Positions 9,842 to 27,475 of a DNA stretch of 64,000 bases are shown here, in pieces. This DNA is from Bythopirellula sp. (GTDB lineage Bacteria; Planctomycetota; Planctomycetia; Pirellulales; Lacipirellulaceae): NCBI GenBank assembly GCA_965216565.1, contig OZ244170.1:4000001-4064000 (forward strand), given 5' to 3'. Made by a program: the position numbers and the translations under genes. Under the pieces are notes generated by a model that was not told the DNA's origin, made no database searches, and saw nothing but the letters and a program-made list of their open reading frames with translations. Position 1 is the stretch's first letter; every line of letters begins with the position of its first letter.

Positions 9842-9890
9842 AGTTGTCGGATAGATGTTCGAGGGATGGGTGCTGGCAGTATAGTCCAAC

Positions 9891-9919
9891 AAAAAACGGG
9901 TCGCCCAGGAGACGACCCG
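9891..9919 (-). terminator. Rho-independent terminator after the PEP-CTERM gene
   Basis: Minus strand reads CGGGTCG-tctcctggg-CGACCCG-TTTTTT, 33 bp downstream of the stop at 9953. Confidence 0.8.
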
Positions 9920-9952: not shown

Positions 9953-10882
9953 TTAGTTGGATTGTTCCTCGTGCTTCTGTCGGCGTGACCGTCGAGTTGC
10001 CAGTAGCCCCGCGGCACCAGTAGCCAATAGTGCGAGACCAGAAGGTTCGGGAACTGAACCGGCGTGGATTGCAACGCCCGGTTGGGTTTCGAAGGCCCAG
10101 CCGTGAATCGTTAACTTGCTGTAGTCCCCTTCCAGTTCGACATCGACCCAGGCGAAACGCGAGTCGCTATTCACATCGTCGAACTGCACACCCAAGAATC
10201 CCCGCATGCCGGGAAACTGCCCGTACGATGTAAAGAAGGAAGTAGGACCTGTGCTGTAACCACCAAAACGACTATTCAGGGTGGGGTGGGTGTAGCTCGC
10301 TGTCACACCGCCACCGGTAGAAAGAAGCTGCTTGTAGTAGCGAACCGAGGAAGTGTTGACATTAATGCGATAGCTAGAACTCAGAAATCCAAGTGCCGCG
10401 TTACTACTGCCTCCAGTGAAGAGACCTGCGTCGACGTTGGTCGAGCTCTGCAATTTTCGAGCGTAGCCACTCGTAGCAATTTGCCCACCGAAACCGATGT
10501 TCGATGCGTAGGCGTTTCCTCTATTGGTTGTGTTCCTATACGACCGAAAGTAGTTGTAGAATTTTACAGTCGCCATGGTGCCGGCAGAATTTACGTTCGT
10601 ACTCGTGCCCCCCACGTTGAAGCCATCAGTGGTTGAAAAAGAAGTCTTATTCAACCCAAGCCGTAGGTCCGGCGTGCCATCGTTATTGAGGTCCAGATCG
10701 AATGTCTGACCTGGGAGAATCATGATGTTTTGATTTATCTTGCCACTGGTCGCTGCCTCGGCCGCCTGTCCGCCAACGAGTGCTGCGCTTGCCGCCGCGG
10801 AATAGCCAATGAGCTTCTTCTTGAGTTGGCTCTTTTGATTCTTGCGCGCGAGATGTTTCTTCGATGTGCGACGTTTACGCAT
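9953..10882 (-). CDS. PEP-CTERM-sorted surface protein
   Basis: Basic leader with signal peptide (..GYSAAASAALVGGQAAEA) and C-terminal VPEPSGLALLATGAAGLLATRRSRR. AAAGGGGGAG RBS. Confidence 0.88.
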   Translation of the reverse strand: MRKRRTSKKHLARKNQKSQLKKKLIGYSAAASAALVGGQAAEAATSGKINQNIMILPGQTFDLDLNNDGTPDLRLGLNKTSFSTTDGFNVGGTSTNVNSAGTMATVKFYNYFRSYRNTTNRGNAYASNIGFGGQIATSGYARKLQSSTNVDAGLFTGGSSNAALGFLSSSYRINVNTSSVRYYKQLLSTGGGVTASYTHPTLNSRFGGYSTGPTSFFTSYGQFPGMRGFLGVQFDDVNSDSRFAWVDVELEGDYSKLTIHGWAFETQPGVAIHAGSVPEPSGLALLATGAAGLLATRRSRRQKHEEQSN

Positions 10883-11183
10883 GAGATCTCCCCCTTTGGA
10901 AGCCGGTTCGTCGGAAAAGAATTGAGCAACTAGATGGCAGCCGATGTCTTGGGCTTAATATAGTCGCCGGGAGTAGAATTCACCAGTTTAATCGAGTTAT
11001 TTCAATAGATACTGTTAGAGCTCGGAAAGCTGTATTATTTGCGGATAGCAATTAAACCGAGTCTGATTCAGAATTTACGACGTGGCCTTTCGCACAAGAT
11101 TCACCATGGGCTGATGCCAGCAAATCATACGTGGGGGTTTGGTAGCTAAAGGGTAGTTTTGATTTCAAGTAGCTAGGAAAACC

Positions 11184-11582
11184 ATGGAAGCTGAAGCACG
11201 CAGTGATGATGCGTTGAGAGACTGTCCGTTTTGCGGGGAGAAAATCAAAGCGATTGCTAAAAAGTGCCGGTACTGTCGCGAGTATCTTGACGAAGAGATG
11301 CGAGCGCAAAACTTGAGGGAATCGATGCCCTCGGCAATCGACCGCTTCATCGCGCCGGACTATACGCCCTCCTATGCAATTACCGCTGGATATTTAGGTT
11401 TATTCTCCTTATTGCCTTTGATCGGAGTTCTGGCAATTGCTTTTAGCTGGCATGCCCTACGCCGACTTCGGCAAAATCCTGAACAACTTGGTCGAGGAAG
11501 AGCAATGTTTGGCTTGGTGATGGGGATCATTACCACATGCTTCTGGGGAGGCATAATCATCGCCGCCGCCATCAGTGGGTGA
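11184..11582 (+). CDS. Zinc ribbon + DUF4190-like membrane protein
   Basis: CPFCGEKIKAIAKKCRYC followed by hydrophobic helices and G.GRA.FG.VMG. Confidence 0.75.
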   Translation: MEAEARSDDALRDCPFCGEKIKAIAKKCRYCREYLDEEMRAQNLRESMPSAIDRFIAPDYTPSYAITAGYLGLFSLLPLIGVLAIAFSWHALRRLRQNPEQLGRGRAMFGLVMGIITTCFWGGIIIAAAISG

Positions 11583-11603: not shown

Positions 11604-14600
11604 TCAGTCCCTGCGGTAGACAGGTTCCTGGTCATCAATTTGCCAACCGACTACGTCATTCAAATTCAGGCGGAATGGCAGCCCTTGGCGGAGAAGCGGA
11701 AACAATTGCGATTCGCCCACCAACTCTCCTTCAAATTGCAGGCCCCCATAGTCTCGTGAGATTGAGTCAACCGCTAAGCGAAATTCTCCGCTCTTAACCT
11801 GTGGGATACAGTACGCTATCACCTCCAGTTGCGGATTCGCGGCCGACTCGAATCGTCTTGCTACCTCAGACAGGGCGAGTCTATGCTCTCGGTCACCAAC
11901 CACATTGGGCTGCTGTTGCCAGGAGCTTAGTGAAAGTCCCTGTCCAAGGACCAAGGGCACAACACCGCTTTGTATCCAGTGAGAAACCAAATCGTGATGT
12001 GCCGGATGCATTCGAAAACCACGCCAAGAGTCCACATCTTCGATACAGAGAATCCGGGAATGGCCTTTGGATAGTTCGCCTGTGACTCTTCGGGCAACAT
12101 CCTCTGCCTCTCGATGCTCGGTTTCGGAGAGGGCCACAGTCCCCACGACTAGCCAGTATTGGCACTTAGCGGCAGTTTCGAGTAATGGATGCGTTTCGCC
12201 GTCAAATTCCCAACCTCTGTCGAATGGCCCCTTTCCCGTTGCCAACCACACTCCAGATTTATCGAGCTGAATTGCAAAGCATCCGGAAGATTCCTCCCTG
12301 CGAGATCCCAGTGAAAGCAGTTTCTTGTCCGATAGTTTGTTTCTATCTAACGCGCTTTCGATCTGTTCGCTGTCCAAGTGCCAAGGTGTCTCGGAGAGAA
12401 AGACTGCATGAACAGTGTTAAAGTCATAGGGCAGTGCCACGGGGAATTCTCGTTGCAGTTCCCCGTATTCTTTGCCCCAAAAAACAGGCCCAGTTGATTC
12501 GCTGTGATAGAACGCAGTCGCCGACTCATCTTTCCTGGCGACTTCTAGTGCAAGTTGCTGCGCGCGGCGATGATTTTCTGTCGCTGCTGCCACGATTGCA
12601 AGATAGTCGACGTCGTTTGATTTCTGTTCGCGGCGGGACGCAAGCTGCTGAGCTTCTTTAAACATGTCCGTTCTTAGTAAGGCTGCAAAAAGACGAGCCT
12701 GATACAGGTCCCTCGTATAAGAGTACGAGAAGGAATCCTCCTCACCCTCCAGTAACTTCTTGGCGTGCTTGGCAAATGCCGAGTGGTCGCCTTGCTCCCA
12801 GGCAGCATTGGCCAAGTGGCGTGTTACTTGAGAGTCAGAGCGATGTGTGGTTCGATGGGCTAACACCAGTTGTTGCAGTCCATTCCAATCCTGGTCAGCG
12901 ATGAATTCACGTGCCAAGGTATTAAAGGCATCTTCCTTTGAGTTGTCAGACCCATAGTGCTGAGCCCAAGTTCCTGCAGCAATCGACAGTTGCAAAATGT
13001 GAGTATCGAAACCAGCACGACCGTTTGCCTCGGCCAACGATCGACCTTGCTGAAGCGACTCGATAGCCGAGTTCCACAACTGCTTTCCAGCCGCGAGTTC
13101 TGCTTTATAGTAATGCCATTGAGGATCGTCCGACTGATGTGCTTGGTGCAATTCGAGAAACGCTGCGACAGCTTCCCAGTGCCCTACTTGCGATGCCAAA
13201 TGGCACAGTTGTGCAAACCGGTTTCTCTTTTCGTCTGTAAGATTGTAGGCAGCGCTAAATCGTCCTTGCTTGTAGAGGACATTTGCCAGCATATAGTTGA
13301 GGGTCTCTGCATTGTACTGCTGGTTGTCATTTGGGTCCGATTCAGATGGTCGTTCTAACCCTTGACGCAAGAGCGCTTCCGCTTCTGCGTAACGACCATC
13401 CTCCTCTGCTAAGTGAGCAGAAAAATAGTAGCCCGCTAAGGAGTTGGGAAACTCGCGAACGAATTGAGCGCTAATCTGTTCGAGTTCTTCGAGCGAAAAT
13501 TGCGAGCCAATATCCTGGTATTCATAGACAATCGCGGTGAACAGCGCCTGCTTGCCGGGCGATTGATTCCAAGCCTCAACCCCGCGTCCAATGGAGCTCA
13601 TCGCGTCGACATAATTTTCGACGTAGCCATTGCGCGTCTGCTCGTCGTGCTCCGCTTGAAAGGCGAGTCGAAATTCGTCTGCAGCCTCTTGGAGTCTGCC
13701 AGCACTGCGCTGTGCAAGCCCGGCGACGTAATGACTTGCTGGCGACGTTGGGGAATTCCTTTGAAGATAGTCTCGCAGAAACGCAATCGCCTCTGGGTCT
13801 TGCCACGCAACCGATTGGGCCACCAAGGCTGCTGCTTTAGTTGGGTCCTTCTGACGCTCTAAGATGTTCTCAAACTGAGACTTCTGTTCAGCAGGCAACG
13901 CCAATAGCAGGGACTGCAAAGCGTTGGCGTGGTTAGGATCGATGCGGAGTATCTGCTCCCACTCCGCCAGGGCATTTTCATCTTGGCCCGAACGTTGGTA
14001 CAGTCGCGCCATTGTTTCACAAAGCTCAAGTGTCGGTCCCACACATTGCTTGTACTTCTTGGCATACTCGATGGCTCGTGCAGGATCTTTCCAGCGATAC
14101 GAATTCATCAGGCCGAAATAGGTCCCAGGTGTCTCTTGCGGTCGAGAGATTTGCTCGAAACATCGCAGTGCTTCGTCCTGTTCCCCAGCGGATTGCCAAA
14201 GATAACCAGCCGTCAGCCAACAGTACCCAACCATTTCCGGCGGGATCGGCTGGGTCTCGGCTTGCCGGAGTTTGTTTGTCGCATTTTCGTAGTCGCCCTC
14301 AGATATAAGTTGGTTCGATTCCGTGAGCAGATCGCTCCAGCGATTAAATCCTTCGTACAGATTGGTATCGAAGTGCCTTGCGTAAACTCCCCACTCTTCC
14401 GAGTAGTGAATGCCTTGATCCAACCGCTCCCAGTCGTACAGCTTCCACTGATCACCATCCCAACCAAGGATCAGACGCAATTCGGCACGGTCTTCTAGGT
14501 CGGGTAGTTTACCGTAAGCATAGATTATGCGAGTGTCGTGATCGTCCTCCGGAGTGAGTACACGAGCCACAACCAAATTGCTCCAGTAAGTATCTACATA

Positions 14601-15086
14601 AGCGGACTTTTTTAGCTGAGTTCGCAGATACCGCTTCTCCAAGAGATTATAGTTATCGAGATTTCCACCTAGCTCGATTCGCTTGAATAGCTTGTGGTGA
14701 TCAACCAAATTGCGGAATTGCTCGCTATCATTTGCCGCTGCAAATGCTCGCAGGTTGTTTAGTAGGCTTTCGATTGCTTGACGCTCTTCGACGTTTTCAA
14801 GCGGAATGCCAGGCAATACGTCATCAGAGGCCTCGAAGTTGCTAAACGCATCGACGGCTTCCGATTGCAGATGGGAAGTACTGTGCAAGCGGGTGACCGT
14901 CACGTTCTCGTCGGTTAACCGGGTCCGACGAATCACAAACCCAATAAATACGACAGTTGTGATTAGGCTAAGTAGAATTCCTCCCACGATGAGCAGGATT
15001 GGAATAACGCGGCGAGGTTTCTGGCGTTCGTCGATGGAGAGCCACTCGACATCCGAATCGAAAGAAGGATCGTTGCTGTGATTCAT
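11604..15086 (-). CDS. Large membrane-anchored TPR-repeat protein (last gene of the Ubl operon)
   Basis: 1160 aa with one N-terminal TM (VIPILLIVGGILLSLITTVVFIGFVI) and many TPR-like helices, e.g. ALAEWEQILRIDPNHANAL. Confidence 0.7.
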   Translation of the reverse strand: MNHSNDPSFDSDVEWLSIDERQKPRRVIPILLIVGGILLSLITTVVFIGFVIRRTRLTDENVTVTRLHSTSHLQSEAVDAFSNFEASDDVLPGIPLENVEERQAIESLLNNLRAFAAANDSEQFRNLVDHHKLFKRIELGGNLDNYNLLEKRYLRTQLKKSAYVDTYWSNLVVARVLTPEDDHDTRIIYAYGKLPDLEDRAELRLILGWDGDQWKLYDWERLDQGIHYSEEWGVYARHFDTNLYEGFNRWSDLLTESNQLISEGDYENATNKLRQAETQPIPPEMVGYCWLTAGYLWQSAGEQDEALRCFEQISRPQETPGTYFGLMNSYRWKDPARAIEYAKKYKQCVGPTLELCETMARLYQRSGQDENALAEWEQILRIDPNHANALQSLLLALPAEQKSQFENILERQKDPTKAAALVAQSVAWQDPEAIAFLRDYLQRNSPTSPASHYVAGLAQRSAGRLQEAADEFRLAFQAEHDEQTRNGYVENYVDAMSSIGRGVEAWNQSPGKQALFTAIVYEYQDIGSQFSLEELEQISAQFVREFPNSLAGYYFSAHLAEEDGRYAEAEALLRQGLERPSESDPNDNQQYNAETLNYMLANVLYKQGRFSAAYNLTDEKRNRFAQLCHLASQVGHWEAVAAFLELHQAHQSDDPQWHYYKAELAAGKQLWNSAIESLQQGRSLAEANGRAGFDTHILQLSIAAGTWAQHYGSDNSKEDAFNTLAREFIADQDWNGLQQLVLAHRTTHRSDSQVTRHLANAAWEQGDHSAFAKHAKKLLEGEEDSFSYSYTRDLYQARLFAALLRTDMFKEAQQLASRREQKSNDVDYLAIVAAATENHRRAQQLALEVARKDESATAFYHSESTGPVFWGKEYGELQREFPVALPYDFNTVHAVFLSETPWHLDSEQIESALDRNKLSDKKLLSLGSRREESSGCFAIQLDKSGVWLATGKGPFDRGWEFDGETHPLLETAAKCQYWLVVGTVALSETEHREAEDVARRVTGELSKGHSRILCIEDVDSWRGFRMHPAHHDLVSHWIQSGVVPLVLGQGLSLSSWQQQPNVVGDREHRLALSEVARRFESAANPQLEVIAYCIPQVKSGEFRLAVDSISRDYGGLQFEGELVGESQLFPLLRQGLPFRLNLNDVVGWQIDDQEPVYRRD

Positions 15087-15143
15087 TTGCAGGCGGCAGG
15101 CGTTGAGTGACAGTCAAGGCGACCGCACAGTTCTTGGTGGAAA

Positions 15144-15638
15144 CTAGACCCCTATTGTTTTCAGCGTCCAATTCCCGATTAGCACGGCGATCAAACATGA
15201 GCCAATCCAGGTAGGCCACTGTCGCTGCACTATCGTATGACGCATCTCACGGAGGCAAAAGATTCGATAAGGGATCTGCAAAACTACGGCAATCCAAAGC
15301 AGCCAGCCCACACGATGGAACTGGATTGACTTAGTCAAATCACCACTCGACAGTGCAATAAAACTTCTTGTCAAACCGCATCCCGGGCAATCGGTTTCGA
15401 ACCAATAGCGGCTGCCACACATGGGCGGGAGCTCGACGCCACCGATGGTTACCGCCGAGGTCGTTCCGCTATCTTGGACGGAGAGCACAAGTGAAAGACC
15501 AAGTATCACAATGCTTGCTATGAGCATCGTCCAATGTCGATCGCGCAATTGTCGAACAATCTTCGCGGAATTAAGACTGGACCCTGCCTGATGTTCTGCG
15601 ACGGTCGGTTCGAGAACCAATTGGACTTCGTCATTCAT
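15144..15638 (-). CDS. DUF2752-family membrane protein
   Basis: C..R......CPGCGLTRSF motif flanked by TM helices. Start placed at ATG 15638. Confidence 0.8.
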   Translation of the reverse strand: MNDEVQLVLEPTVAEHQAGSSLNSAKIVRQLRDRHWTMLIASIVILGLSLVLSVQDSGTTSAVTIGGVELPPMCGSRYWFETDCPGCGLTRSFIALSSGDLTKSIQFHRVGWLLWIAVVLQIPYRIFCLREMRHTIVQRQWPTWIGSCLIAVLIGNWTLKTIGV

Positions 15639-15661
15639 GCGGGTCGCAATTCTCAAAAAAA

Positions 15662-16387
15662 TCAGCCCATCGTTTCGTTAGATACAGAAGGAACAAACAC
15701 GGTATCGCACTGGATGCAGCGTAACTTGCGCCCTGCCATTTCGTGGCGAAAGCGATACTTCTTTTTGCAGCTGGGACACGTTACCGAAGCTGTTGATGCG
15801 GGGTTGGCCAGCGCTTCGGAAGATGGACTATTGTTGGCCGTGGGCGATGGGGCGGGAGGCACTGGGGGTTTGAACGGTTCGCTTAGATTTGCTTGAACGG
15901 GGGCTGCTGCGGTGCTGCTTTGCTCTTCCACCAACAGGCTAACCGGATCCAAAGGAAGCTTTTCCTGGTTGAGTTCCACCCACCGTGCCGCGTCTCCATT
16001 CAGTGGACTTTTCACGTTGTAAACCTGATAGGCCAGCAATTCGCCGATGCGCATTACGATGGACGCCAATGGTTCGCCGGAACTCCAGTGGTCGCCCACA
16101 CAAATGGCATGGGGAGCAATATTCGGATGAAATACGGGCGACAACATGCGGCATTGGGGTGGAGTGCGCGGATAATTCCTTGGCAACACAATCTCAACCA
16201 TGTGGCTTTTAACGCCTTGCAACTGGTCATCGACCATGCGAACACTATTAATACGAAACTCAAGTTGGTAGCGCTCGGGAGGATCTCCCTCGGCTTGGAT
16301 CAAACGGACTCGAGGATGAAGCCGCGCGTACTCTTTCAGTTTTGCATGGTCGGCAGTCAACCGTCTCAAACGTACCGTACTCATCAA
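15662..16387 (-). CDS. Ubiquitin-conjugating enzyme E2 (UBC fold) with a C-terminal zinc ribbon
   Basis: RLRRL N-terminal helix, LPRNYPRTPP, VFHPNI..AICV..HW (HPN motif plus catalytic Cys) and SPLN. Pro/Ser linker, then CPSC-x16-CIQC. Confidence 0.92.
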   Translation of the reverse strand: MMSTVRLRRLTADHAKLKEYARLHPRVRLIQAEGDPPERYQLEFRINSVRMVDDQLQGVKSHMVEIVLPRNYPRTPPQCRMLSPVFHPNIAPHAICVGDHWSSGEPLASIVMRIGELLAYQVYNVKSPLNGDAARWVELNQEKLPLDPVSLLVEEQSSTAAAPVQANLSEPFKPPVPPAPSPTANNSPSSEALANPASTASVTCPSCKKKYRFRHEMAGRKLRCIQCDTVFVPSVSNETMG

Positions 16388-17694
16388 TCGCTCTCCTCAG
16401 CTTCTTGATCGGTAACGATATTTTGACTGGTGATGTCAAACCGTTCAGGGATCAAATCGACCAGCGTGCTAAAGTCGATCGCAAATCCCAGCCCTTCGGC
16501 AATCCTCTTTTCAGCAGTCATAGAGTTGATGCCGACTAGGTGTCCCTGAGAGTCGTAGAGTCCCCCGCCACTATTGCCGGGGTTGATTGGTGCGGAGGTC
16601 TGCAAGATCTTAAACTTCATATTCCCGCGCCTTTGACTTCGAATTTGCGAGAGGCTACCTGACGTATGGGTCCAGCCCAACCCGTGGGGATTGCCTACAG
16701 CAAATACTTCATCGCCAATCTTAGCTTTTTCGTTGTTGTCCCAATTTGCCTCTTGGACGTCTCGATTAGAAAGTGGAGCTGATACGATGGCCAGATCGAT
16801 ACCGTGGGGAGCGACCCATTCAACTGCGCCGGGAATCGACACTTGACTAATCGACATCACCATGACACTGGCGAGGTCGGACAGATTTTTTGGAGCACTT
16901 GTCGTCGAATCGGAGTAGTTCTGGTCGATGACATGCCGGTTCGTCACGATGTAGGCCTGTCCATTGTTGACTTTTAGCACAACGCCCGAGCCGATGCCGG
17001 CACGTCCGAACCCGGCATCAATTTGAATTAAGACATTCGCCCGCATGGCACGTGCGATGTACTCAGGCAAGTCGTCCAGTGAACTGGCATCAATGGCGAG
17101 TTCCGACATAGAGACGGCAGCCCGCGGTGTGCCAAAGTAGCTGGACAGCCCAATAGACCAGCCTACGACGTCTAACAGTCCCAACACCATCGCGGCAACG
17201 GCTAGTCCCATACCCCGTCGATTTTCGCGATGGATCACCAGGGCGATGCAACCGATCAGGATTGCGATAAGTCCCGTGATTATACCGAACAGAGGAATGC
17301 CCAGCAGTGCGACGACCATCGCCCAAATGCTCGCCCGATTCCACCTCCTATCAACTTTCCTGGCGTCTTCTGCCTCAAGACTATTGAACGATTTAGGCGT
17401 CGGGAGTGGCTCGGTGCTTTGAAGTTCTTCGCGAGTGATCGTCAGCGGCGTTTTTTCGCTGCTGGCAATCGTAGCTTTGCCCTCGGTACACTCATACGCG
17501 CTGCAGCCGTGGCCCTCTTGCCAACAATTTTCGTGGTGGACCGCTCCGCAAGACGTGCAGACCGCTACGGGGATGCTGAGGCTAATCTCTGCGCTGCATT
17601 TAGCACATAACGCCCCCGCCTCTCTCTCACCGGCATTGCGTATGATGGGGTCGTTGTGTGACACGTGTTTCACCAAGCTCAAAAGACTATGCAT
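16384..17694 (-). CDS. Prokaryotic RING-like domain + DUF4190-like TM region + trypsin-like (S1C) serine protease
   Basis: CAKC-x12-CTSCGAVHHENCW..GHGCSAYEC, then TM helices, then the triad TNRHV / DLAIV / NPGNSGG. Confidence 0.85.
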   Translation of the reverse strand: MHSLLSLVKHVSHNDPIIRNAGEREAGALCAKCSAEISLSIPVAVCTSCGAVHHENCWQEGHGCSAYECTEGKATIASSEKTPLTITREELQSTEPLPTPKSFNSLEAEDARKVDRRWNRASIWAMVVALLGIPLFGIITGLIAILIGCIALVIHRENRRGMGLAVAAMVLGLLDVVGWSIGLSSYFGTPRAAVSMSELAIDASSLDDLPEYIARAMRANVLIQIDAGFGRAGIGSGVVLKVNNGQAYIVTNRHVIDQNYSDSTTSAPKNLSDLASVMVMSISQVSIPGAVEWVAPHGIDLAIVSAPLSNRDVQEANWDNNEKAKIGDEVFAVGNPHGLGWTHTSGSLSQIRSQRRGNMKFKILQTSAPINPGNSGGGLYDSQGHLVGINSMTAEKRIAEGLGFAIDFSTLVDLIPERFDITSQNIVTDQEAEESD

Positions 17695-17712
17695 AATTAC
17701 GCCAACATGGCG

Positions 17713-18423
17713 TCATATCTCGGAGACAACCACAAACAGTAGCATCAACGCAGAATAGATCGCAGACAGTACGATGGCCGTCCATCCCATGATACTAAAA
17801 AGTGGCCCGCATCGCTTCAGTTTGTCGCGTCTGGGAAGAATGTAACCAAGGGCGATCAATAGCATCAGAGGAGCACAAAGCCCCAACAGCGAGCAGATAA
17901 AGATTCCTGTCACCCATTGTTTCATGGATTCCAGCTCATCGCTGAGCTTACCTTGACGACGAAGATCTCCCGCCGACATGGGATCGACTGTCTCAAAATC
18001 TGTTTGGCAGTATCTGCACCGCAGAGCAATCGATTTTATTTTCTCCCCGCATGCTGGACAACTCTTCGTGTCTCCCCAGGCGGTGAGAGGTGCTTGCACC
18101 GAGGCTTCCGACTTGTCGATTATCGATGCCTGGTCACAACCATAGGTTCCACAGCCACCCACTTCTGACCAACACTCTCGATGGTGCACTTGATCGCAAC
18201 TTGGACAGGTGACGCAATCTTCGCTGACACCAATGTCACTCTGACAAATGGGGCACAGCGCATCTCGCCCAGCATCCAGGGTCACCGAGTTTAGGAGCTT
18301 CAGGTCGGCGGTAACTGCTAGACCCTGTTCGCAGCTGGGACAGCGGAACGAACGATTGGCGCGGTCCTCGGGCAAACGGATCTTCGCACCGCACTGGCAA
18401 GTAATCGTTGTGCTGCTGTCCAC
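17713..18423 (-). CDS. Zn ribbon + prokaryotic RING-like domain + Zn ribbon + TM (candidate membrane E3)
   Basis: CQC..CPSC; CPIC-x12-CPSCDQVHHRECW..VGGCGTYGC; CPACGEKIKSIALRCRYC; C-terminal hydrophobic helices. Confidence 0.85.
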   Translation of the reverse strand: MDSSTTITCQCGAKIRLPEDRANRSFRCPSCEQGLAVTADLKLLNSVTLDAGRDALCPICQSDIGVSEDCVTCPSCDQVHHRECWSEVGGCGTYGCDQASIIDKSEASVQAPLTAWGDTKSCPACGEKIKSIALRCRYCQTDFETVDPMSAGDLRRQGKLSDELESMKQWVTGIFICSLLGLCAPLMLLIALGYILPRRDKLKRCGPLFSIMGWTAIVLSAIYSALMLLFVVVSEI

Positions 18424-18427
18424 TTGT

Positions 18428-18967
18428 TTACGGCGCCTCAGCCACTACGCTTAGCAGGACTCGCACCACCATCCAGAATCCCTGCACGGCAAGTGAAACC
18501 AGAAACATCTTTTTGCCCTTTGGTTTACCCTGAATCATCCAGATGATGCCTACGATACACCCAATTCCGGAACAGAGAATAGCAATCACCCACTCACCGG
18601 TGGACAGGTCGTCGTCTTCGTAACCTCCAGCGGAGCTGGTCTTCTTTACCTTCTTTTGTTCTTGTTTTTTGAGATCGGGATCAAAGATCTCTCCGCAGAA
18701 CCGACACTTGACCGCCTTGCGAAGAATCATTTCGCCACAGGCGGAACAGGGCTTGCGGTCGTCTTCTTGAACCTCGCCGGAAGTCAAATCTGCTTCGCTC
18801 AGTCCAGCCAGCGGCGACGCGAGTGGGTCGAGTGCATCGTCCTCTTGTTGAAGATTCGGGATCTGCAGCACACCACCGCACTTGGGACATTTGGCTTTTT
18901 TCCCGGCGGAACTATCTGGTGTGCTGAGCGTGGCACCACAGCCGTTGCAAGTCACTTTGATAGACAC
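18428..18967 (-). CDS. Double zinc-ribbon membrane protein
   Basis: CNGC..CPKC and CSAC..CRFC with two C-terminal TM segments. GTG start with a GGGGAG RBS. Confidence 0.8.
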   Translation of the reverse strand: MSIKVTCNGCGATLSTPDSSAGKKAKCPKCGGVLQIPNLQQEDDALDPLASPLAGLSEADLTSGEVQEDDRKPCSACGEMILRKAVKCRFCGEIFDPDLKKQEQKKVKKTSSAGGYEDDDLSTGEWVIAILCSGIGCIVGIIWMIQGKPKGKKMFLVSLAVQGFWMVVRVLLSVVAEAP

Positions 18968-19092
18968 TGGTTAACTCCCCTACAGTTAAGATCCTGTCAT
19001 TACATTCGAAATAGCAGATGCATCGAAAAGTTGGCTTCTATTTTATCGAACCTCCGTCGCCGATTCCTCATTTTTCTCCTGCGGAACAGCCG

Positions 19093-20076
19093 TCATCGGA
19101 GATCACTCCTTAAATCGATAGCGGCCATGAGAGACTTGAGCAACCGAAGGAACCACACAAAGGCAACGATGGCCGCCACAAGTATCGTTATGCCGAGAAT
19201 TCCCAAGACAATCCCAGCTTCCTGATCTCCCAAAACCACACTAAGAATACCAATTCCAACGGTGCCGAAGAATAATACGACACCGAAGATTATGAATCTC
19301 GCCGCACTGCGAGCCAAAACATCGTCATCAAGATGTATTGCCGTGCGGCGAATAAACAGAATGAAGAAAACGTTTCCAATAGTTGAGCAGAGGCTTCCGA
19401 GAGACTTGAGAGCCTCTGACTCCATCCCACTACCAAACATAGAAAGGCCTGCACTTGCCATCGTGCAGAAAAAGGCGGTCAACGCAAAAGCACGGGCTCC
19501 ACTGTTTGCAGGAACCGCGGTGGTCCGCGCTTGTCCAATGAGTATGGTTAGGCCGGCTCCTAGAATGGTCAGTCCGGCAACTCCGAATACTGTTAGAAAC
19601 AAGACTGACGGAGCCTTGTTATCTTCTTCCACAAAGGCACCAGTCACCATCAGTGCCACCATCATCGCAACGAAGCAGACAAAGACAATGACTATGCCGT
19701 AATAGATATTCGCCAATCCTCCTCGGACCTTATACCAACTGGGATCATTCGGATCGAATGCTCCGCCACTCGTCCTGGCCATCGATTTATCGAAAATCGT
19801 GCTGCAAAAACGGCACTTCACGGCCGTGCGAATGATCATCTCGCCACACGCGGGACAAGGCTTACGTTCGTCTTGGTCCTCTTCCCCAGCAGTTGTTTCT
19901 TCCTCACCATAGCCTCCGAGAGGCGATGCGATTGGCTCGAGTGCGTCGTCCTCTTGTTGAGGGCCGGGGATCTGCAACATACCGCCACACTTGGGGCATT
20001 TCGCGCGCTTGCCGGCAGCAGAGTCGGGCGTGCTGAGTTTACTTCCACAGCCGCTGCAAGTCACTTCGATGGGCAC
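19093..20076 (-). CDS. Double zinc-ribbon polytopic membrane protein
   Basis: CSGC..CPKC and CPAC..CRFC with about six C-terminal hydrophobic helices. The N-terminus is paralogous to 18428..18967. Confidence 0.8.
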   Translation of the reverse strand: MPIEVTCSGCGSKLSTPDSAAGKRAKCPKCGGMLQIPGPQQEDDALEPIASPLGGYGEEETTAGEEDQDERKPCPACGEMIIRTAVKCRFCSTIFDKSMARTSGGAFDPNDPSWYKVRGGLANIYYGIVIVFVCFVAMMVALMVTGAFVEEDNKAPSVLFLTVFGVAGLTILGAGLTILIGQARTTAVPANSGARAFALTAFFCTMASAGLSMFGSGMESEALKSLGSLCSTIGNVFFILFIRRTAIHLDDDVLARSAARFIIFGVVLFFGTVGIGILSVVLGDQEAGIVLGILGITILVAAIVAFVWFLRLLKSLMAAIDLRSDLR

Positions 20077-20149
20077 TAGTTAATTCCCCTACGTTGAAAA
20101 GTCAGTCTTCGGAATCAAGAGTACGTCGCTATCCTCAGGGCGTTTCTTC

Positions 20150-20286
20150 CTAGAACCAGTTTCAAAAACCGAAAACAGTTCTATGTAAGCCGACGGCGTT
20201 AGCCGCGGGTGGCGTAAGTCTAGGTGTTGTTCTGATGCTACCCGACGCTAGCGCGGTCGGCTCATTGGTTTTGAAACAGCTTCTAG
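20150..20286. mobile_element. 137-bp MITE-like element with CTAG-ended imperfect terminal inverted repeats and an internal inverted REP-like pair
   Basis: Left end CTAGAACCAGTTTCAAAA vs reverse complement of right end CTAGAAGCTGTTTCAAAA. Internal GTAAGCCGACGGCGTTAGCCGCGGG vs reverse complement ATGAGCCGACCGCGCTAGCGTCGGG. Confidence 0.7.
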
Positions 20287-21350
20287 GCATTCTTAGACTC
20301 CTTTAGGGAGAACTCCAATACAGTTTTCCCAAGGACAATCTGATCTCCATCTTCCAGAATCCGGTTGGTTACGGGAATACCATTCACGTAGGTTCCCTCA
20401 GGCGAATCGCAATCTTCGATCACAAACCGGCCTCCTCGATTGACGATCTGCGCGTGCCGAGGTTCGATGGCGTCGTCTTTGAATAGATAGATATCAGCCT
20501 TGGGCGAACTTCCCAAGAAGGTGGTGTCCTTGAAAAGGATAAACTGCTTGCCGGCCAACGGGCCCTTACGCATCATTAGCCAAGCGGTCTTTGTCCAGCC
20601 CTCGACAAGTCCGACAAACAATCCGACCGACGCACCAATCACGGCAAACCCAACGCCACGGCTATACGTGGCCTGTCCGTCTTCGGTAAGCAGCACCAGG
20701 CTAATGGGATCGAAAAGCAGACCCCCCAGCAATCCACCCAGTACCGCGCCGACTAGGCCATTGATGATTACTTTTTTCTCGCGCAACGCAATGCCTTGGC
20801 CAATCCCGGCAGGAATCGAGACTATAGCCCACGCCGCTCCACGGCCCATCATCAATACCAATAGAGCGAGCCCTGTGGGCATGACATTGGGATCGGGATC
20901 TTCCCATAGACTTTCTGCCAAAACGCTCATGATTCCAAATACAAATCCTGTGGGGATCAGAGCCATGACTCCACCAAGGAACCCAACGCCGAGTCCCACG
21001 AAGCCACAACGAATTGCCCGCAGAGGATTTCGGCAGATGATCCCTTCGGCAGAGCCCAAGAGCAGGCCAATGAAACCAGCAACCGTGGGGAACAGTAGGA
21101 GCTTGGCGGCCAAGCCTTCATCTTCCAGATCGTTGTCGTCGACCCAGGGTTCCAAAATTCCCCACCCGATGAGACCACCCACCATGGCGGCGAGGGAGAG
21201 ATAGAACCAGTTTGCGTAAATCACCTTCACGATCCACGACTGATGTCCCATCTCGCCGAGGTCACGGCTGAGGTATTGCTGCATCTCGACGTATTGCTCA
21301 ACGTCGGGTGAATGCAGATCAGTGGACGTGATACGGATTGGATCCGACAC
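20283..21350 (-). CDS. Polytopic Gly-rich membrane protein with a C-terminal FHA-fold domain
   Basis: About six TM helices, then GPLAGKQF..LGSS..DI......IEPRHAQI.....F.IED.DS..GTYVNG......L.DGD.I.LGKT.L.F. Confidence 0.85.
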   Translation of the reverse strand: MSDPIRITSTDLHSPDVEQYVEMQQYLSRDLGEMGHQSWIVKVIYANWFYLSLAAMVGGLIGWGILEPWVDDNDLEDEGLAAKLLLFPTVAGFIGLLLGSAEGIICRNPLRAIRCGFVGLGVGFLGGVMALIPTGFVFGIMSVLAESLWEDPDPNVMPTGLALLVLMMGRGAAWAIVSIPAGIGQGIALREKKVIINGLVGAVLGGLLGGLLFDPISLVLLTEDGQATYSRGVGFAVIGASVGLFVGLVEGWTKTAWLMMRKGPLAGKQFILFKDTTFLGSSPKADIYLFKDDAIEPRHAQIVNRGGRFVIEDCDSPEGTYVNGIPVTNRILEDGDQIVLGKTVLEFSLKESKNA

Positions 21351-21355
21351 AAAGA

Positions 21356-22573
21356 CTACCTTTCGTCCGGTTCTGGCGAATCGGGAACTTCTAGTTCGGG
21401 TTTACGAGGCTCGAGACTTGGTGCCGCGGGAAGTTTATCTGCCAGGGGAATCGGGGTTGTTTGTTTTTTAAGATTCGATTCCGGAACTGTTCCTTTCTCG
21501 TCGCTTTGCGATTTCCTCTCTTTGTCCGCTTGCTCGAGTATCTTTAGCTGCTTGGCTTGGAGACGTCTGGAAAGCTCCGCCAGGGCCCGGCGTTCGCGGT
21601 CGTCGAAGCTGTATCTTGAGCTAACCTCGTCCAGCCGCTTCGATATTCCCAAGAGATTTCCGATCAGCAGTTTGCGATCGTTGGCGAGTTCTTTGAGTTG
21701 CTCCTCGGAGAGTTCGTTGGTCTCGGTCGGCATCGATTTCATCTGCTTGGTGGCAGAGGCCAGAAATTTCTGCACCTCGGCCAGTTCTTCGCGCAAGCCA
21801 AGTTTCGTCAGGCGGAAATCGGTGTAGTTGAACACCACACCGTCGACAATCGCTTGACGCTCCCAGGAAGACTTCATGCCGGCAAGCAGATAGCCCAAAA
21901 GGAACAACGCCAACAGGGCCAGCGGCGTCGCCGCATACGAAAAGAATCCAGGTTCCTCAGCGGGGCCGATTCCATTAGCACCCTGTGCGTTTGCCGAACC
22001 CTCCTTGGCAGCCTCGGCGGCGGGATTGCGGATGCTGGCTTCGACGGTGCGAATGGTATTGCCAATCCAATAGTGACTGATGGGAGTCGGCTTACCATTT
22101 TTCCAGGCAAAGACTCCCTCTAAATCTCTCACTGGATCGACAACATAGGCGACTTGGCCGGGACCCGAGAAAAAATGCTCGTGGATGAAGCAGTCGCGGT
22201 CGGAGAGGAAAATGCCGAAGTCGGGATGCGAATGGTACCAGCCGACAATCCGTTTGTCTTCGAATCGAGAATCCATCTCGCTATTGATCTGGCTCCACGA
22301 TTCGTGCGTGAAGGTGACCTCGGCAAATTTGCTAGTGGCGCTCTCGCAGCGAATGAAATCTTCGGCCACAGCATAGGGACCATCGTCGTCCTGGTACCAC
22401 AATCCGACCAGCACCCCGCAGATTTCAACGGAGGTGTCTTGCTTGGCATGCTTGGATATTCCTTGATGGACCTCAGGCGAAATGTGAAATCGAAAATCCG
22501 ACTTGCCACTGGCAGGAAACTGGCTTTGCTGGAGTTGTTCGTCGGCCAAGCCTCCGACATCAATATCACTCAT
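21356..22573 (-). CDS. JAB/MPN+ (JAMM) metallopeptidase with a TM anchor and coiled-coil C-terminus
   Basis: EICGVLVG ... VGWYHSHPDFGIFLSDRD (E-xn-HxH-x7-S-xx-D) and TM TPLALLALFLLGYLLAGM. The start ATG at 22573 overlaps the end of the E1 gene and has a GGGGAG RBS. Confidence 0.92.
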   Translation of the reverse strand: MSDIDVGGLADEQLQQSQFPASGKSDFRFHISPEVHQGISKHAKQDTSVEICGVLVGLWYQDDDGPYAVAEDFIRCESATSKFAEVTFTHESWSQINSEMDSRFEDKRIVGWYHSHPDFGIFLSDRDCFIHEHFFSGPGQVAYVVDPVRDLEGVFAWKNGKPTPISHYWIGNTIRTVEASIRNPAAEAAKEGSANAQGANGIGPAEEPGFFSYAATPLALLALFLLGYLLAGMKSSWERQAIVDGVVFNYTDFRLTKLGLREELAEVQKFLASATKQMKSMPTETNELSEEQLKELANDRKLLIGNLLGISKRLDEVSSRYSFDDRERRALAELSRRLQAKQLKILEQADKERKSQSDEKGTVPESNLKKQTTPIPLADKLPAAPSLEPRKPELEVPDSPEPDER

Positions 22574-23780
22574 GCCTTGCTCCCCCATTTGCTGTCGGAT
22601 CCTGCAACAACGGCCCCAGCAATTCTTGCCGGTCTCCTGCAAATTCGTAGTATCTCGCGTCCATGCCCGCACGTCCTGCTAGGATATCCCATGGTGGGAT
22701 TCCGAGTTCGCCGAGTGTTCGATCAAGCAGAGACGAGTCTTCGCCTAGCGTGTGATAAATATTGGGAGTGCGCGGTTCGTTGCATTTTTTGCAGCGGCCC
22801 TGGTCTTCAGAGACTTTACCTAGCGAGGTATAGATTTCCTCGGTCTCATCACAATTAGTACAGGTAAGTGTGGCCAGGAGGTCTTGATTGGTTTCAATCA
22901 CCGCTGCGGCTCCCAAGTCGGATCGGACGCGCTCCAAGAACTCGCCCACGGTTGTCTTTGCAATCTGCCAGTCTAGTTCTTCCACCGGTTCGTAGGGCTC
23001 ATGCGAGGGGCACTCCTCAAGTCTTGAATAGCTCACCAGATAACTTTGGTGATTGGTGCCATCGAGCACGAATCCTTGTCCGGCAATCGACGGTAGTTGA
23101 TGTAGCATTTTTACTGCTTCTTGCACCTGAATGCCAGCAATTATTGAGGAAGAAGTTGGCGTGGTGGGTACTTTCCCCTGTTGCATCTCTTCGCGAGTGA
23201 GCAGTGCGCAACTCCTACGGGCCTCAAGCATTTGCCAATCGATCTCGCTCATGGTGCATTCGTAACACGGCCCCGAGGCGGCGTCGAATACCCGCGCAAC
23301 CCCGTCGAGCCGTTCGATAGCTCCATCGATCCACGGTTTCCCAACCCTAGCTGCCGATAGATTGATGGCCACGCGAGCCTCGCGATTGTCGAGACCGCCG
23401 AGAATCACATCAGCCCAGCGATAAACTCCCAAACCCAAATCATAAACGATGTTGCCTTGGAACGACTGGGTGCGAAGCTCAGGATAGATGTCCCGTGCGC
23501 GTTCCGTAGCCACTTCCGCTTTGGCCCGGCCACAATCATCGCCGCGGTACAGAACAGAACGAGACAGATTCGAGTTTTCAATGGTATCCAAATCGGCAAC
23601 GAACATCTTGCCCACGCCGAGAAGGGCCAAGTTTTTGATGATTTCGTTTCCCAGTGCCCCCGCACCAATCACCAGAGCTTTCGAGGAAGTTAGAAGCTGT
23701 TGATCCCACCAACCAATCAGATCGAAGCGAGAGAAGCGTCCTTCCTCTAGCGCCGAACCAATCTTAATGGGATCCGTCAT
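22566..23780 (-). CDS. E1-like ubiquitin-activating enzyme (ThiF/UBA) with extra C-terminal Zn-binding domain
   Basis: IGAGALG, DLDTIENSNLSR, GLDNREAR, GPCYEC, candidate thioester Cys in RRSCA, CPSH, and CTNC..CKKC. Start placed at ATG 23780 (GGAG RBS). Confidence 0.92.
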   Translation of the reverse strand: MTDPIKIGSALEEGRFSRFDLIGWWDQQLLTSSKALVIGAGALGNEIIKNLALLGVGKMFVADLDTIENSNLSRSVLYRGDDCGRAKAEVATERARDIYPELRTQSFQGNIVYDLGLGVYRWADVILGGLDNREARVAINLSAARVGKPWIDGAIERLDGVARVFDAASGPCYECTMSEIDWQMLEARRSCALLTREEMQQGKVPTTPTSSSIIAGIQVQEAVKMLHQLPSIAGQGFVLDGTNHQSYLVSYSRLEECPSHEPYEPVEELDWQIAKTTVGEFLERVRSDLGAAAVIETNQDLLATLTCTNCDETEEIYTSLGKVSEDQGRCKKCNEPRTPNIYHTLGEDSSLLDRTLGELGIPPWDILAGRAGMDARYYEFAGDRQELLGPLLQDPTANGGARHE

Positions 23781-23796
23781 AAGAACTCCGTCCGAT

Positions 23797-24117
23797 TCAG
23801 TCGCACCCGACGCCAAGGATTGTGCATGGAGAATGGAACAGACGCCCCACCCCGGCGGTTATTTCCGGCTGGAGTCTAAGGATATCACCCTCTTCGACGT
23901 GGGCGGATTCCAGCGTGTCTGTATCCAAGAGCTGCCGGCCAGATTTTTTGTGATGAAACTTGTAGCTCATTGCCTGACCATCCGGGCTGTGTCGAGGCAG
24001 ATTCATGCGATCGATCAAGACGGCAATCAGACGATTCACTTCGGCATCGGGAGGAACTTCTACCAATTGACGTTTGTTGCCGGTTGCGTCCCAGACTTCG
24101 ATTTTGATATCACTCAT
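23797..24117 (-). CDS. Ubiquitin-like beta-grasp protein (YukD/EsaB-like) with a C-terminal extension
   Basis: IKIEVWDATG...VEVP...GRQL...TL....V.EGDILRLQPEITAG followed by VGRLFHSPCTILGVGCD*. First gene of the E1/JAB/E2 operon. Confidence 0.85.
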   Translation of the reverse strand: MSDIKIEVWDATGNKRQLVEVPPDAEVNRLIAVLIDRMNLPRHSPDGQAMSYKFHHKKSGRQLLDTDTLESAHVEEGDILRLQPEITAGVGRLFHSPCTILGVGCD

Positions 24118-24764: not shown

Positions 24765-25592
24765 ATGATGTCGAATCCATTGACGGTCCTCATTCCTTGT
24801 AAGGATGAACGCCTCAACATTGTGCCCTGCATTGAATCCATTCAATCGTTTGCCGACGAGATTCTGATAGCGGATTCAGGCTCAACCGATGGCACTTTAG
24901 AATTGGTTCACAAGCGTGGTGACTGCCGTGTGATCGAACGCGAGTACATCAACTCGGCCGACTTCAAGAATTGGGCGATTCCGCAGGCGAGTCATCCCTG
25001 GGTTCTTATTCTGGACGCTGATGAACGGATCACAGAGGAACTAGCGGCAGAGATTCGGCAGACACTTGCGAACCCTGCCGTTGAGATCGATGGCTATTGG
25101 ATTGGAAGACAAAATCACTTCGTGGGTCACCGCATCAATCATTGTGGTTGGAATCGAGACGGGGTGATACGGCTTTTTCGGCGCGACGACGTGCGTTATC
25201 AAGAGCGCTGGGTACATGCCAAGATGGAAATTGAGCCGGAAAGGGTAGCTCGCCTCAAGGAAACGATGTTGCATTACACAACGTGGTCGACCGACGACTA
25301 TTGCGAAAAGTTGAATCGCTATGCGAACTGGACGGTCAACAACTACGTGGCCAAGGGACGTCAGCCGAGTGTGCTATCGATGTTTCTGGCGGCACCGCTA
25401 CGATTCTTACAGCTTTACTTGTTGCGAGGCGGGATTCTCGATGGCGCCCCCGGTTTTCAGGTATGCATGTATTCGGCGTTCTACTCGTTTATGAAACAGG
25501 CCAAGCTATGGGAAGTGAGCCACGCCCGATTAGAGCCAGGTGCCGAACCGAGGCTGGCAGTTCACGCGAAAGACACAGCCGACGCCGCGTAG
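24765..25592 (+). CDS. Glycosyltransferase family 2 (WaaE/KdtX-like beta-1,4-glucosyltransferase type)
   Basis: DEILIADSGSTDGT, WVLILDADE (intact DxD), RLFRR...VH, KLNRY and LLRGGILDG.PG. Confidence 0.88.
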   Translation: MMSNPLTVLIPCKDERLNIVPCIESIQSFADEILIADSGSTDGTLELVHKRGDCRVIEREYINSADFKNWAIPQASHPWVLILDADERITEELAAEIRQTLANPAVEIDGYWIGRQNHFVGHRINHCGWNRDGVIRLFRRDDVRYQERWVHAKMEIEPERVARLKETMLHYTTWSTDDYCEKLNRYANWTVNNYVAKGRQPSVLSMFLAAPLRFLQLYLLRGGILDGAPGFQVCMYSAFYSFMKQAKLWEVSHARLEPGAEPRLAVHAKDTADAA

Positions 25593-27231: not shown

Positions 27232-27475
27232 GCGGCTTTGCTTCAAGCAGTTGCGTGTGCTCACTTGCGAATGCCAGTGCTAGCACGTGAGAGTACGCGA
27301 TTATTTCTTAATATTGCGACCTGTTTGGCCGACGATGTTAACTCTTGCGGCCTGGGCAGCCGATACCAATTCTATCGGTTGGAGGGCCTACTGCCGCCTA
27401 TGCAAAAAGTGCGGCAGGAGACGTTTTGTTGTCAGTAGCGTTCATGTGTCATCCAATAGAAGAGCGACTGCGAGT

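What the first reader, a model, noticed from the sequence alone, without database searches (positions are those of the whole stretch)
11604..24117. Complete membrane-associated bacterial ubiquitination operon (Ubl, E1, JAB, E2, two RING-like E3 candidates)
Seen: eleven co-oriented genes with mostly short gaps or overlaps, in the order Ubl, E1, JAMM, TM-FHA, two Zn-ribbon-TM proteins, RING-TM, RING-TM-trypsin, E2, DUF2752, TM-TPR. Catalytic motifs are intact in the E1 (GxGxxG, RRSC), E2 (HPN plus Cys) and JAMM (HxH-x7-S-xx-D). Eight of the eleven products have predicted TM helices. Known: an E2 plus RING distinguishes protein conjugation from ThiF/MoeB sulfur transfer, and the characterised antiphage bacterial systems (CBASS Cap2/Cap3, Bil) use E1/E2/JAB without a RING E3. 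As I recall, planctomycete RING-containing Ub operons have been predicted by comparative genomics, but I know of no experimental characterisation. Inference: a eukaryote-like three-enzyme cascade working at the inner membrane, for envelope-stress signalling, ERAD-like quality control or defence.
Basis: partly seen in the sequence, partly recalled or inferred. Interest (0 to 1): 0.95.

Follow-up and report, generated by a model that had tools for sequence, protein, structure and literature searches.

The report
Membrane-bound bacterial ubiquitin-like tagging operon
A planctomycete-type bacterium carries an intact gene block for a ubiquitin-like tag, its activating, carrier and RING ligase enzymes and a trimming enzyme, mostly anchored in the membrane; this class was predicted from genomes in 2011, and its relatives show that the tag is made as a precursor that has to be cut free.

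Summary
Observation confirmed: 11 intact minus-strand genes with Ubl, E1, JAB, E2 and two Prok-RING_1 domains. Two corrections: the TPR gene is not core (3 of 43 long relative loci), and a missed twelfth gene (11184-11582, +, Zn-ribbon-DUF4190) belongs to the system. New evidence for real conjugation: the Ubl keeps PEITAG in 120 of 120 relatives, followed by unconserved tails of 0-60 residues; 79 of 120 longer relatives fuse it to that twelfth protein and 10 to a whole E1, so a cut after Gly89 is expected. The E1 model has a C-terminal ubiquitin-fold domain, which Bil E1 lacks; the E2 is closest to Rad6/UBE2A-B; an E2-RING model gets weak support. The block is syntenic but patchy (3 of 27 same-genus genomes) and lies among housekeeping genes, which argues against essential ERAD-like quality control. 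It is a new member of the RING-containing prokaryotic class predicted by Burroughs, Iyer and Aravind (2011); nine literature searches found no bench study. This scan has noted the same class in other genomes several times. Interest 0.6.

The parts
23797..24117 (-). YukD-like Ubl precursor, 106 aa; mature end predicted at Gly89 (PEITAG), 17-residue tail
   Evidence: Pfam YukD; PEITAG in 120 of 120 relatives with tails of 0-60 aa; fusions
22566..23780 (-). E1, 404 aa: ThiF-type adenylation domain, catalytic Cys191 (RRSC), C-terminal ubiquitin-fold domain with a Zn-ribbon insert
   Evidence: model pLDDT 90; aligns 16-383 to SUMO E1 SAE2 5-535, 300 residues, rmsd 3.5 A, Z 29.2
21356..22573 (-). 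JAB/JAMM peptidase (H114, H116, S124, D127), one TM helix, variable helical C-terminal part
   Evidence: Pfam JAB; motif in 36 of 37; TM 215-233
20283..21350 (-). Six-TM protein with a C-terminal FHA domain lacking the phosphothreonine-binding Arg and Ser
   Evidence: GS for GR in 45 of 45 and (E/A)PxH for SRRH; median 66% identity
19093..20076 (-). Variable double-Zn-ribbon, five-TM protein (accessory cassette gene)
   Evidence: full-length match in 1 relative locus; 0-4 such genes per locus
18428..18967 (-). Double-Zn-ribbon protein with C-terminal membrane anchor
   Evidence: match over 60% of its length in 45 loci
17713..18423 (-). Zn ribbon - C4HC3 Prok-RING (C57, C60, C73, C76, H81, C84, C91, C96) - Zn ribbon - membrane anchor; E3 candidate
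   Evidence: Pfam Prok-RING_1; ligands invariant in 62 of 62; weak E2 complex support
16384..17694 (-). Prok-RING - DUF4190 anchor - trypsin-like protease (H254, D300, S375), no PDZ match
   Evidence: RING pattern in 51 of 63, triad motifs in 64 of 66
15662..16387 (-). E2 (HPN 87-89, Cys96) with C-terminal Zn ribbon
   Evidence: Pfam UQ_con; best PDB matches UBE2B/UBE2A; alignment
15144..15638 (-). DUF2752 two-TM protein with conserved CPGCG; core component
   Evidence: present in 40 of 43 loci
11604..15086 (-). N-terminally anchored 1160-aa TPR protein; accessory
   Evidence: 3 of 43 long loci plus short locus L004, and upstream of the Ubl in L008 and L012
11184..11582 (+).
   Evidence: Pfam DUF4190; 50% identical to the fused partner in P0170; between Ubl and E1 in 9 of 38 loci, same inverted place in L004; its Zn-ribbon motif occurs in this genome only at this locus, 4 matches

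Best explanation
A reversible, membrane-proximal ubiquitin-like conjugation system. (1, inferred from strong comparative evidence) The membrane-anchored JAB cuts the Ubl precursor after the invariant Gly89. (2, inferred from motifs and model) The E1 adenylates it, forms a thioester on Cys191 and recruits the E2 through its C-terminal ubiquitin-fold domain. (3, inferred) E2 Cys96 takes the Ubl and, docked on the membrane C4HC3 RING proteins, ligates it to a lysine of a protein at the inner membrane; the operon's own Zn-ribbon-DUF4190-type membrane proteins are the most likely adaptors or targets. (4, weakly inferred) The biological role is an accessory envelope-surveillance or conflict response: variable Zn-ribbon-TM genes act as sensors, the trypsin domain (probably periplasmic) and the TM-FHA protein as sensor or effector, and JAB resets the system.
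For: All catalytic motifs conserved. PEITAG kept in 120 of 120 Ubls with free tails; 3 of 38 locus copies end exactly at this Gly; 79 of 120 longer relatives are Ubl-Zn-ribbon-DUF4190 fusions (74 with PEITAG or PEIVAG at the junction) and 10 carry a full-length E1 behind the motif. BilC and archaeal Rpn11 process such precursors (PMC10557695, PMC5654768, passages). E1 model aligns end to end with SUMO and NEDD8 E1s including the C-terminal domain. E2 closest to UBE2A/B with canonical HPN. E2-RING model: score 0.56, best control 0.01, runs agree in at least 95% of contacts, partner pLDDT 83; that mark was reached by 116 of 157 solved and 2 of 215 mismatched pairs, but at 0.60 or under by only 18 of the 157 and by both mismatches, so it is weak, and E2-RING is a textbook pair that may pass from memory. 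Six of 150 E2 representatives carry a DUF4190-like anchor and one an FHA. Gene order conserved. Patchy presence with high conservation; 0-4 variable Zn-ribbon genes per locus.
Against: No conjugate, target or phenotype has been shown. The finger is C4HC3 and matches PHD fingers as well as RING-H2; the residue after its last Cys is Arg or Lys in only 16 of 62, whereas the archaeal E3 needs a conserved basic residue (PMC5654768; its position is recalled). No defence-specific neighbours: of 108 flanking ORFs from 30 loci, 7 hit PADLOC and all look generic (ABC ATPases, kinases, an AAA regulator). Composition is not foreign (tetranucleotide distance at the 43rd percentile of 402 windows). Membrane topology rests on hydropathy and charge only.
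Confidence: 0.6

Rival explanations
1. Conjugation is real but RING-independent, as in Bil; the C4HC3 fingers are PHD-like or structural Zn adaptors and the E2's own Zn ribbon selects targets.
For: PHD fingers rank among the best PDB sequence hits; no conserved basic residue after the last Cys; related loci L098-L100 and L103 show Ubl, E1, E2 and JAB with no match to the window's RING proteins in the stretch fetched; Bil works without an E3 (PMC10557695).
Against: RING genes sit beside the E2 in 37-38 of 43 loci and stay with the E2 half when the block is split; Ile59 (56 of 62) and a hydrophobic residue at 88 (62 of 62) are kept; weak E2-RING model support.
Confidence: 0.2
2. ERAD-like housekeeping quality control: misfolded membrane proteins are tagged and degraded with the help of the trypsin domain.
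For: Membrane RING proteins plus a protease; housekeeping neighbours; tree roughly follows taxonomy.
Against: Found in only 3 of 27 same-genus genomes and 6 of 61 relatives, 28 of 301 in the order; no AAA extractor or proteasome-type gene among the 12 genes.
Confidence: 0.12
3. Sulfur-carrier chemistry (ThiS/MoaD-like thiocarboxylate), or a non-conjugated YukD-type scaffold as in type VII secretion.
For: E1 core fold is closest to MoeB/ThiF (Z 31); Pfam names the Ubl YukD, which is reported not to be conjugated (PMC1779556).
Against: An E2 with HPN and Cys, an E2-recruiting-type E1 domain, RINGs, and no sulfur-pathway or secretion ATPase gene among the 12; invariant Gly with free tails fits processing.
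Confidence: 0.04

Closest known systems
Prokaryotic Ubl/E1/E2/JAB/RING operons predicted by Burroughs, Iyer and Aravind 2011 (Mol Biosyst 7:2261; Pfam Prok-RING_1). The paper itself was not held; known here from recall and from citing papers PMC4197634 and PMC10557695.
   Same: YukD-like Ubl, E1, E2, JAB and Prok-RING_1 in one block; sporadic in Planctomycetes and often missing from close relatives (PMC4197634).
   Different: Cannot be compared gene by gene without the paper. The precursor fusions, the ubiquitin-fold domain of the E1, the FHA without phospho-binding residues and the DUF4190 gene were not met in the passages or searches I could run, but may be in the 2011 paper or its supplements.
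Caldiarchaeum subterraneum Ub/E1/E2/srfp/Rpn11 operon (PMC5654768)
   Same: Pro-Ubl with a C-terminal extension cut by a JAMM; E1 with a C-terminal ubiquitin-like domain; E2; RING.
   Different: Ala-Gly end, not di-Gly; YukD-type Ubl; C4HC3 membrane-anchored fingers instead of a small soluble RING-H2; protease, FHA and Zn-ribbon membrane partners.
Bil (BilABCD) antiphage system (PMC10557695)
   Same: Separate Ubl, E1, E2, JAB; Ubl precursor processing.
   Different: BilD is IAD-AAD-CYS without a UFD and Bil has no E3; here a single adenylation domain plus UFD, two RINGs and membrane partners. PADLOC BilD match only 1e-6 over 107 residues.
Type II CBASS Cap2/Cap3 and Bub (6E/DUF6527) operons (PMC11601603, PMC11601596)
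   Same: E1, E2 and a peptidase.
   Different: No E1-E2 fusion, no CD-NTase or DUF6527 match among the 12 genes; catalytic cysteines kept, whereas Bub uses Tyr/Ser oxyesters.

Membership tests
Prokaryotic RING-containing Ubl operons (Burroughs 2011 class) | Prok-RING_1 domain gene(s) beside E2 | tested here: met
Prokaryotic RING-containing Ubl operons (Burroughs 2011 class) | Ubl, E1, E2 and JAB in the same block with intact motifs | tested here: met
Prokaryotic RING-containing Ubl operons (Burroughs 2011 class) | Sporadic distribution including Planctomycetes | tested here: met
   PMC4197634
Prokaryotic RING-containing Ubl operons (Burroughs 2011 class) | Exact gene neighbourhood drawn in the 2011 paper | not testable with these tools
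   paper not held
RING E3 ligase | Binds the cognate E2 and promotes Ubl transfer | tested here: inconclusive
   weak predicted support, 0.56 vs control 0.01; mixed RING/PHD sequence hits
Canonical (Uba3/SAE2-type) E1 | Catalytic Cys plus C-terminal ubiquitin-fold domain | tested here: met
   C191 conserved; model aligns 16-383 to 9dqb_B 5-535, Z 29.2, rmsd 3.5 A, 300 residues; the domain was not folded and searched alone, and Pfam gave no UFD family
Bil | E1 of IAD-AAD-CYS type without UFD; no E3 | tested here: not met
Bil | Anti-phage activity | not testable with these tools
   needs phage challenge
Type II CBASS Cap2/Cap3 | Fused E1-E2 and a CD-NTase | tested here: not met
   separate E1 and E2 genes; no CD-NTase family among 12 genes
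Bub (6E/DUF6527) | DUF6527 protease; E1/E2 without catalytic Cys | tested here: not met
Archaeal C. subterraneum ubiquitin operon | Di-glycine Ub and small soluble RING-H2 | tested here: not met
   Ala-Gly end; C4HC3 with TM anchor
Phosphothreonine-binding FHA | GR and SxxH motifs (role recalled; motifs seen in GarA/OdhI) | tested here: not met
   GS in 45 of 45; E or A at the Ser position

The most novel reading that the evidence does not exclude
The first bacterial RING-E3-dependent, fully eukaryote-like cascade (UFD-bearing E1, Rad6-like E2), built as a trans-envelope switch: a periplasmic protease joined to a cytoplasmic RING senses envelope attack and drives Ubl onto the operon's Zn-ribbon-DUF4190 membrane proteins, while the Ubl is supplied as a ubiquitin-style fusion precursor (Ubl-Zn-ribbon membrane protein, Ubl-E1) that parallels eukaryotic ubiquitin-ribosomal-protein precursors.
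Probability: 0.3. Interest if true: 0.88.

Novelty: new member of a known kind. Interest (0 to 1): 0.6.

Why it matters
The bacterial conjugation systems studied so far (CBASS Cap2, Bil, Bub) work without a RING E3, and the papers on them list RING-containing operons as uncharacterised. This block gives a defined cleavage site (Gly89), defined catalytic residues and cultured carriers among the records found (Lacipirellula limnantheis, Aeoliella straminimaris, Aquisphaera giovannonii), so the question of whether bacteria run a three-enzyme E1-E2-RING cascade, and at a membrane, can be tested directly. It bears on where membrane RING ligases and ubiquitin fusion precursors came from.

Tried and rejected
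Apparent long E2 fusions in L088 and L089 are open GC-rich frames, not genes. Trypsin-E2 'fusions' among E2 representatives (5 of 150) look like frameshifts or chimeras and were not used to place the protease; two trypsin-Ubl fusions were likewise set aside. RNA: no RNA holder listed, so co-transcription was not tested and no reads were laid. No E2 relative in viral contigs with this query. No look-alike note by place. No shared upstream motif above shuffles in 38 upstream regions (best 6 vs 4-5); promoter and terminator counts equal chance. The TM domain of the FHA protein found no family in the Atlas and fold searches were filled by the FHA domain, so it is barely tested. A CD225/DUF4190 link for the second Zn-ribbon protein's anchor was not supported by Pfam or the Atlas (scores under 0.9). 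The tree is a quick run on 57 rows with coarse labels (loci lacking any of the three genes were left out): roughly taxonomic, not decisive on transfer. Locus L087 showed no E2 hit in my script although the genome search placed one there; unexplained, and L087 is in no synteny count. Flank ORFs came from a crude caller and cover only the downstream side. Literature searches for a bench study; none found; most subscription journals are outside the library, and no supplements were read.
Full report
Observation. The eleven genes are open, co-oriented and tightly spaced. Pfam assigns YukD, ThiF, JAB, FHA, two Prok-RING_1, trypsin with DUF4190, UQ_con, DUF2752 and TPR. Eight of eleven have hydrophobic segments. 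The 5.2-Mb genome has no other E2 or Prok-RING_1 match. GC (0.528 vs 0.536) and tetranucleotide use (43rd percentile of 402 windows) are ordinary for the genome, and no tRNA gene lies in the window.

Conservation. The E2 found 194 relatives in the genome collection; the best 80 were kept, all labelled Planctomycetota, 68-89% identical. In the 43 of those 80 loci of 20 kb or more: DUF2752 40, RING-trypsin 38, RING-TM 37, second Zn-ribbon protein 37, Ubl, E1 and JAB 33 each, TM-FHA 32, TPR 3, nearly always in the window's order (the 10-kb flank can cut off the first genes). So the core is nine genes; TPR is accessory. Between TM-FHA and RING lie 0-4 Zn-ribbon genes (46 loci), and the window's first one has a single full-length match. 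Median identities: Ubl 79%, E1 66%, TM-FHA 66%, E2 56%, RING 51%. Some genomes split the block (G213: Ubl about 300 kb from E2) or keep an orphan E2 (4 of 4 genomes of one genus gave no Ubl match with this query).

A missed gene. ORF 11184-11582 (+) converges on the TPR gene 21 bp away and encodes a Zn ribbon plus DUF4190. Its orthologue lies between Ubl and E1 in 9 of 38 loci, just upstream of the Ubl in L005, and in the same inverted place in L004. Its Zn-ribbon motif occurs four times in the genome, all in this locus.

The Ubl is a precursor. It has no terminal glycine here. In the 120 best of 1999 relatives PEITAG is invariant and the tail after it is 0-60 residues with no conserved first residue. 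Among longer relatives (123 hits, 120 listed), 79 are in-frame fusions to the Zn-ribbon-DUF4190 protein, 74 with the motif at the junction (two more keep the Gly, two have Arg, one is garbled), and 14 run into an E1, 10 of them full length. One DUF4190 fusion is in a 10-Mb record named Aquisphaera giovannonii (P0131), and the linkers cluster at 17-19 residues, so assembly error is unlikely. A Ubl fused ahead of its own E1 cannot be adenylated until cut, so processing after Gly89 by the JAB is the simplest reading; BilC and archaeal Rpn11 do this (PMC10557695, PMC5654768; passages). The parallel with eukaryotic ubiquitin-ribosomal protein precursors is recalled (title seen in the reference list of PMC4197634).

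The enzymes are of the canonical type. The E1 model (pLDDT 90) has a MoeB/ThiF core (Z 31.5) and aligns end to end with SUMO E1 in the E2-loaded state (300 residues, rmsd 3.5 A, Z 29.2) and NEDD8 E1, which indicates a C-terminal ubiquitin-fold domain; BilD lacks one. That domain was not searched alone and Pfam did not name it. The E2 profile's best solved matches are UBE2B and UBE2A (1e-9), with HPN and Cys invariant (144 of 150 wider representatives). The fingers are C4HC3, the arrangement reported for prokaryotic RINGs (PMC11354881, passage); ligands are invariant, sequence hits mix RING-H2 and PHD, and no basic residue is conserved after the last Cys. The predicted E2-RING complex scored 0.56 against 0.01 for the best control, with runs agreeing in at least 95% of contacts and partner pLDDT 83; 116 of 157 solved and 2 of 215 mismatched pairs reach the mark, but at 0.60 or under only 18 of 157 and both mismatches, and a textbook pair can pass from memory. 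E3 activity is therefore plausible, not shown.

Membrane partners. The RING-trypsin protein has basic residues before and after a 34-residue hydrophobic stretch and then one more helix; by the positive-inside rule (my inference) the RING is cytoplasmic and the protease periplasmic. The FHA domain aligns to GarA/OdhI but has GS for GR in 45 of 45 and E/A-P-x-H for SRRH, so it probably does not read phosphothreonine. In other lineages the E2 itself is fused to a DUF4190-like anchor (6 of 150) or an FHA (1 of 150), tying these modules to conjugation.

Role. The system is accessory: 3 of 27 same-genus genomes and 6 of 61 relatives, 28 of 301 in the order by Ubl, 40 of 401 in the phylum by E2, 5 of them at 69% or more; these are samples, and kin are not independent. 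That argues against essential quality control and fits a conflict or niche function, as proposed for such operons (PMC3417536, PMC10557695; passages). Against a typical defence island: downstream neighbours are housekeeping genes that differ between lineages (sulfate ABC, glnA, gcv, zwf, pdxJ), 7 of 108 flank ORFs hit PADLOC and those are generic domains, and a quick tree roughly follows taxonomy. I put envelope surveillance or conflict ahead of ERAD, with low certainty.

Novelty. PMC4197634 (passage) and PMC10557695 cite Burroughs, Iyer and Aravind 2011 for such operons in Planctomycetes, Actinobacteria and Acidobacteria and call them uncharacterised; the 2011 paper was not held. I read passages only of PMC5654768, PMC11601603, PMC11354881, PMC3417536, PMC8195603, PMC10557695, PMC1779556, PMC11601596, PMC4999995 and PMC4197634, and no supplements. 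Nine searches found no bench study of a bacterial RING operon. Earlier notes of this scan report the same class in at least seven other windows; a word search returned none on the DUF4190 precursor fusion. Verdict: a real, intact new member of a predicted but untested kind, with added evidence for precursor processing and a canonical E1; interest 0.6.

Noticed in passing
L094-L097 (G035, G222, G255, G183): Orphan E2 with C-terminal Zn ribbon (40-51% identical) among metabolic genes; no Ubl match in those four genomes with the window's Ubl as query.
   Followed up: partly
L101 and L102: A second operon type in the same order with two E2s, two JABs, one E1, a Ubl and two Prok-RING_1 proteins, one with DUF3137.
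   Followed up: partly
P0210, P0228: Two Ubl-DUF4190 fusions have Arg in place of the junction Gly, perhaps uncleavable forms.
   Followed up: no
L050 and L057, around 10001-11266: E2 frame runs on into a three-TM region overlapping DUF2752; fusion or sequencing error.
   Followed up: no
G000:C1:892348-892527: A lone Zn-ribbon match to the two Zn-ribbon-TM proteins elsewhere in the genome.
   Followed up: no
window 9953-10882 (-) and 6980-9892 (-): PEP-CTERM protein followed by a 970-aa ORF that looks like a phosphodiesterase/sulfatase-TPR-sulfotransferase fusion (from recalled motifs; not scanned with Pfam).
   Followed up: no
window 24765-25592 (+) and 25633-27264 (-): GT2 glycosyltransferase and a Kdo/WaaP-kinase-GT2 fusion upstream of the operon.
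   Followed up: no
window 5192-6916 (+): Ser/Thr kinase-like ORF about 4 kb from the operon end (kinase-type PADLOC hits).
   Followed up: no
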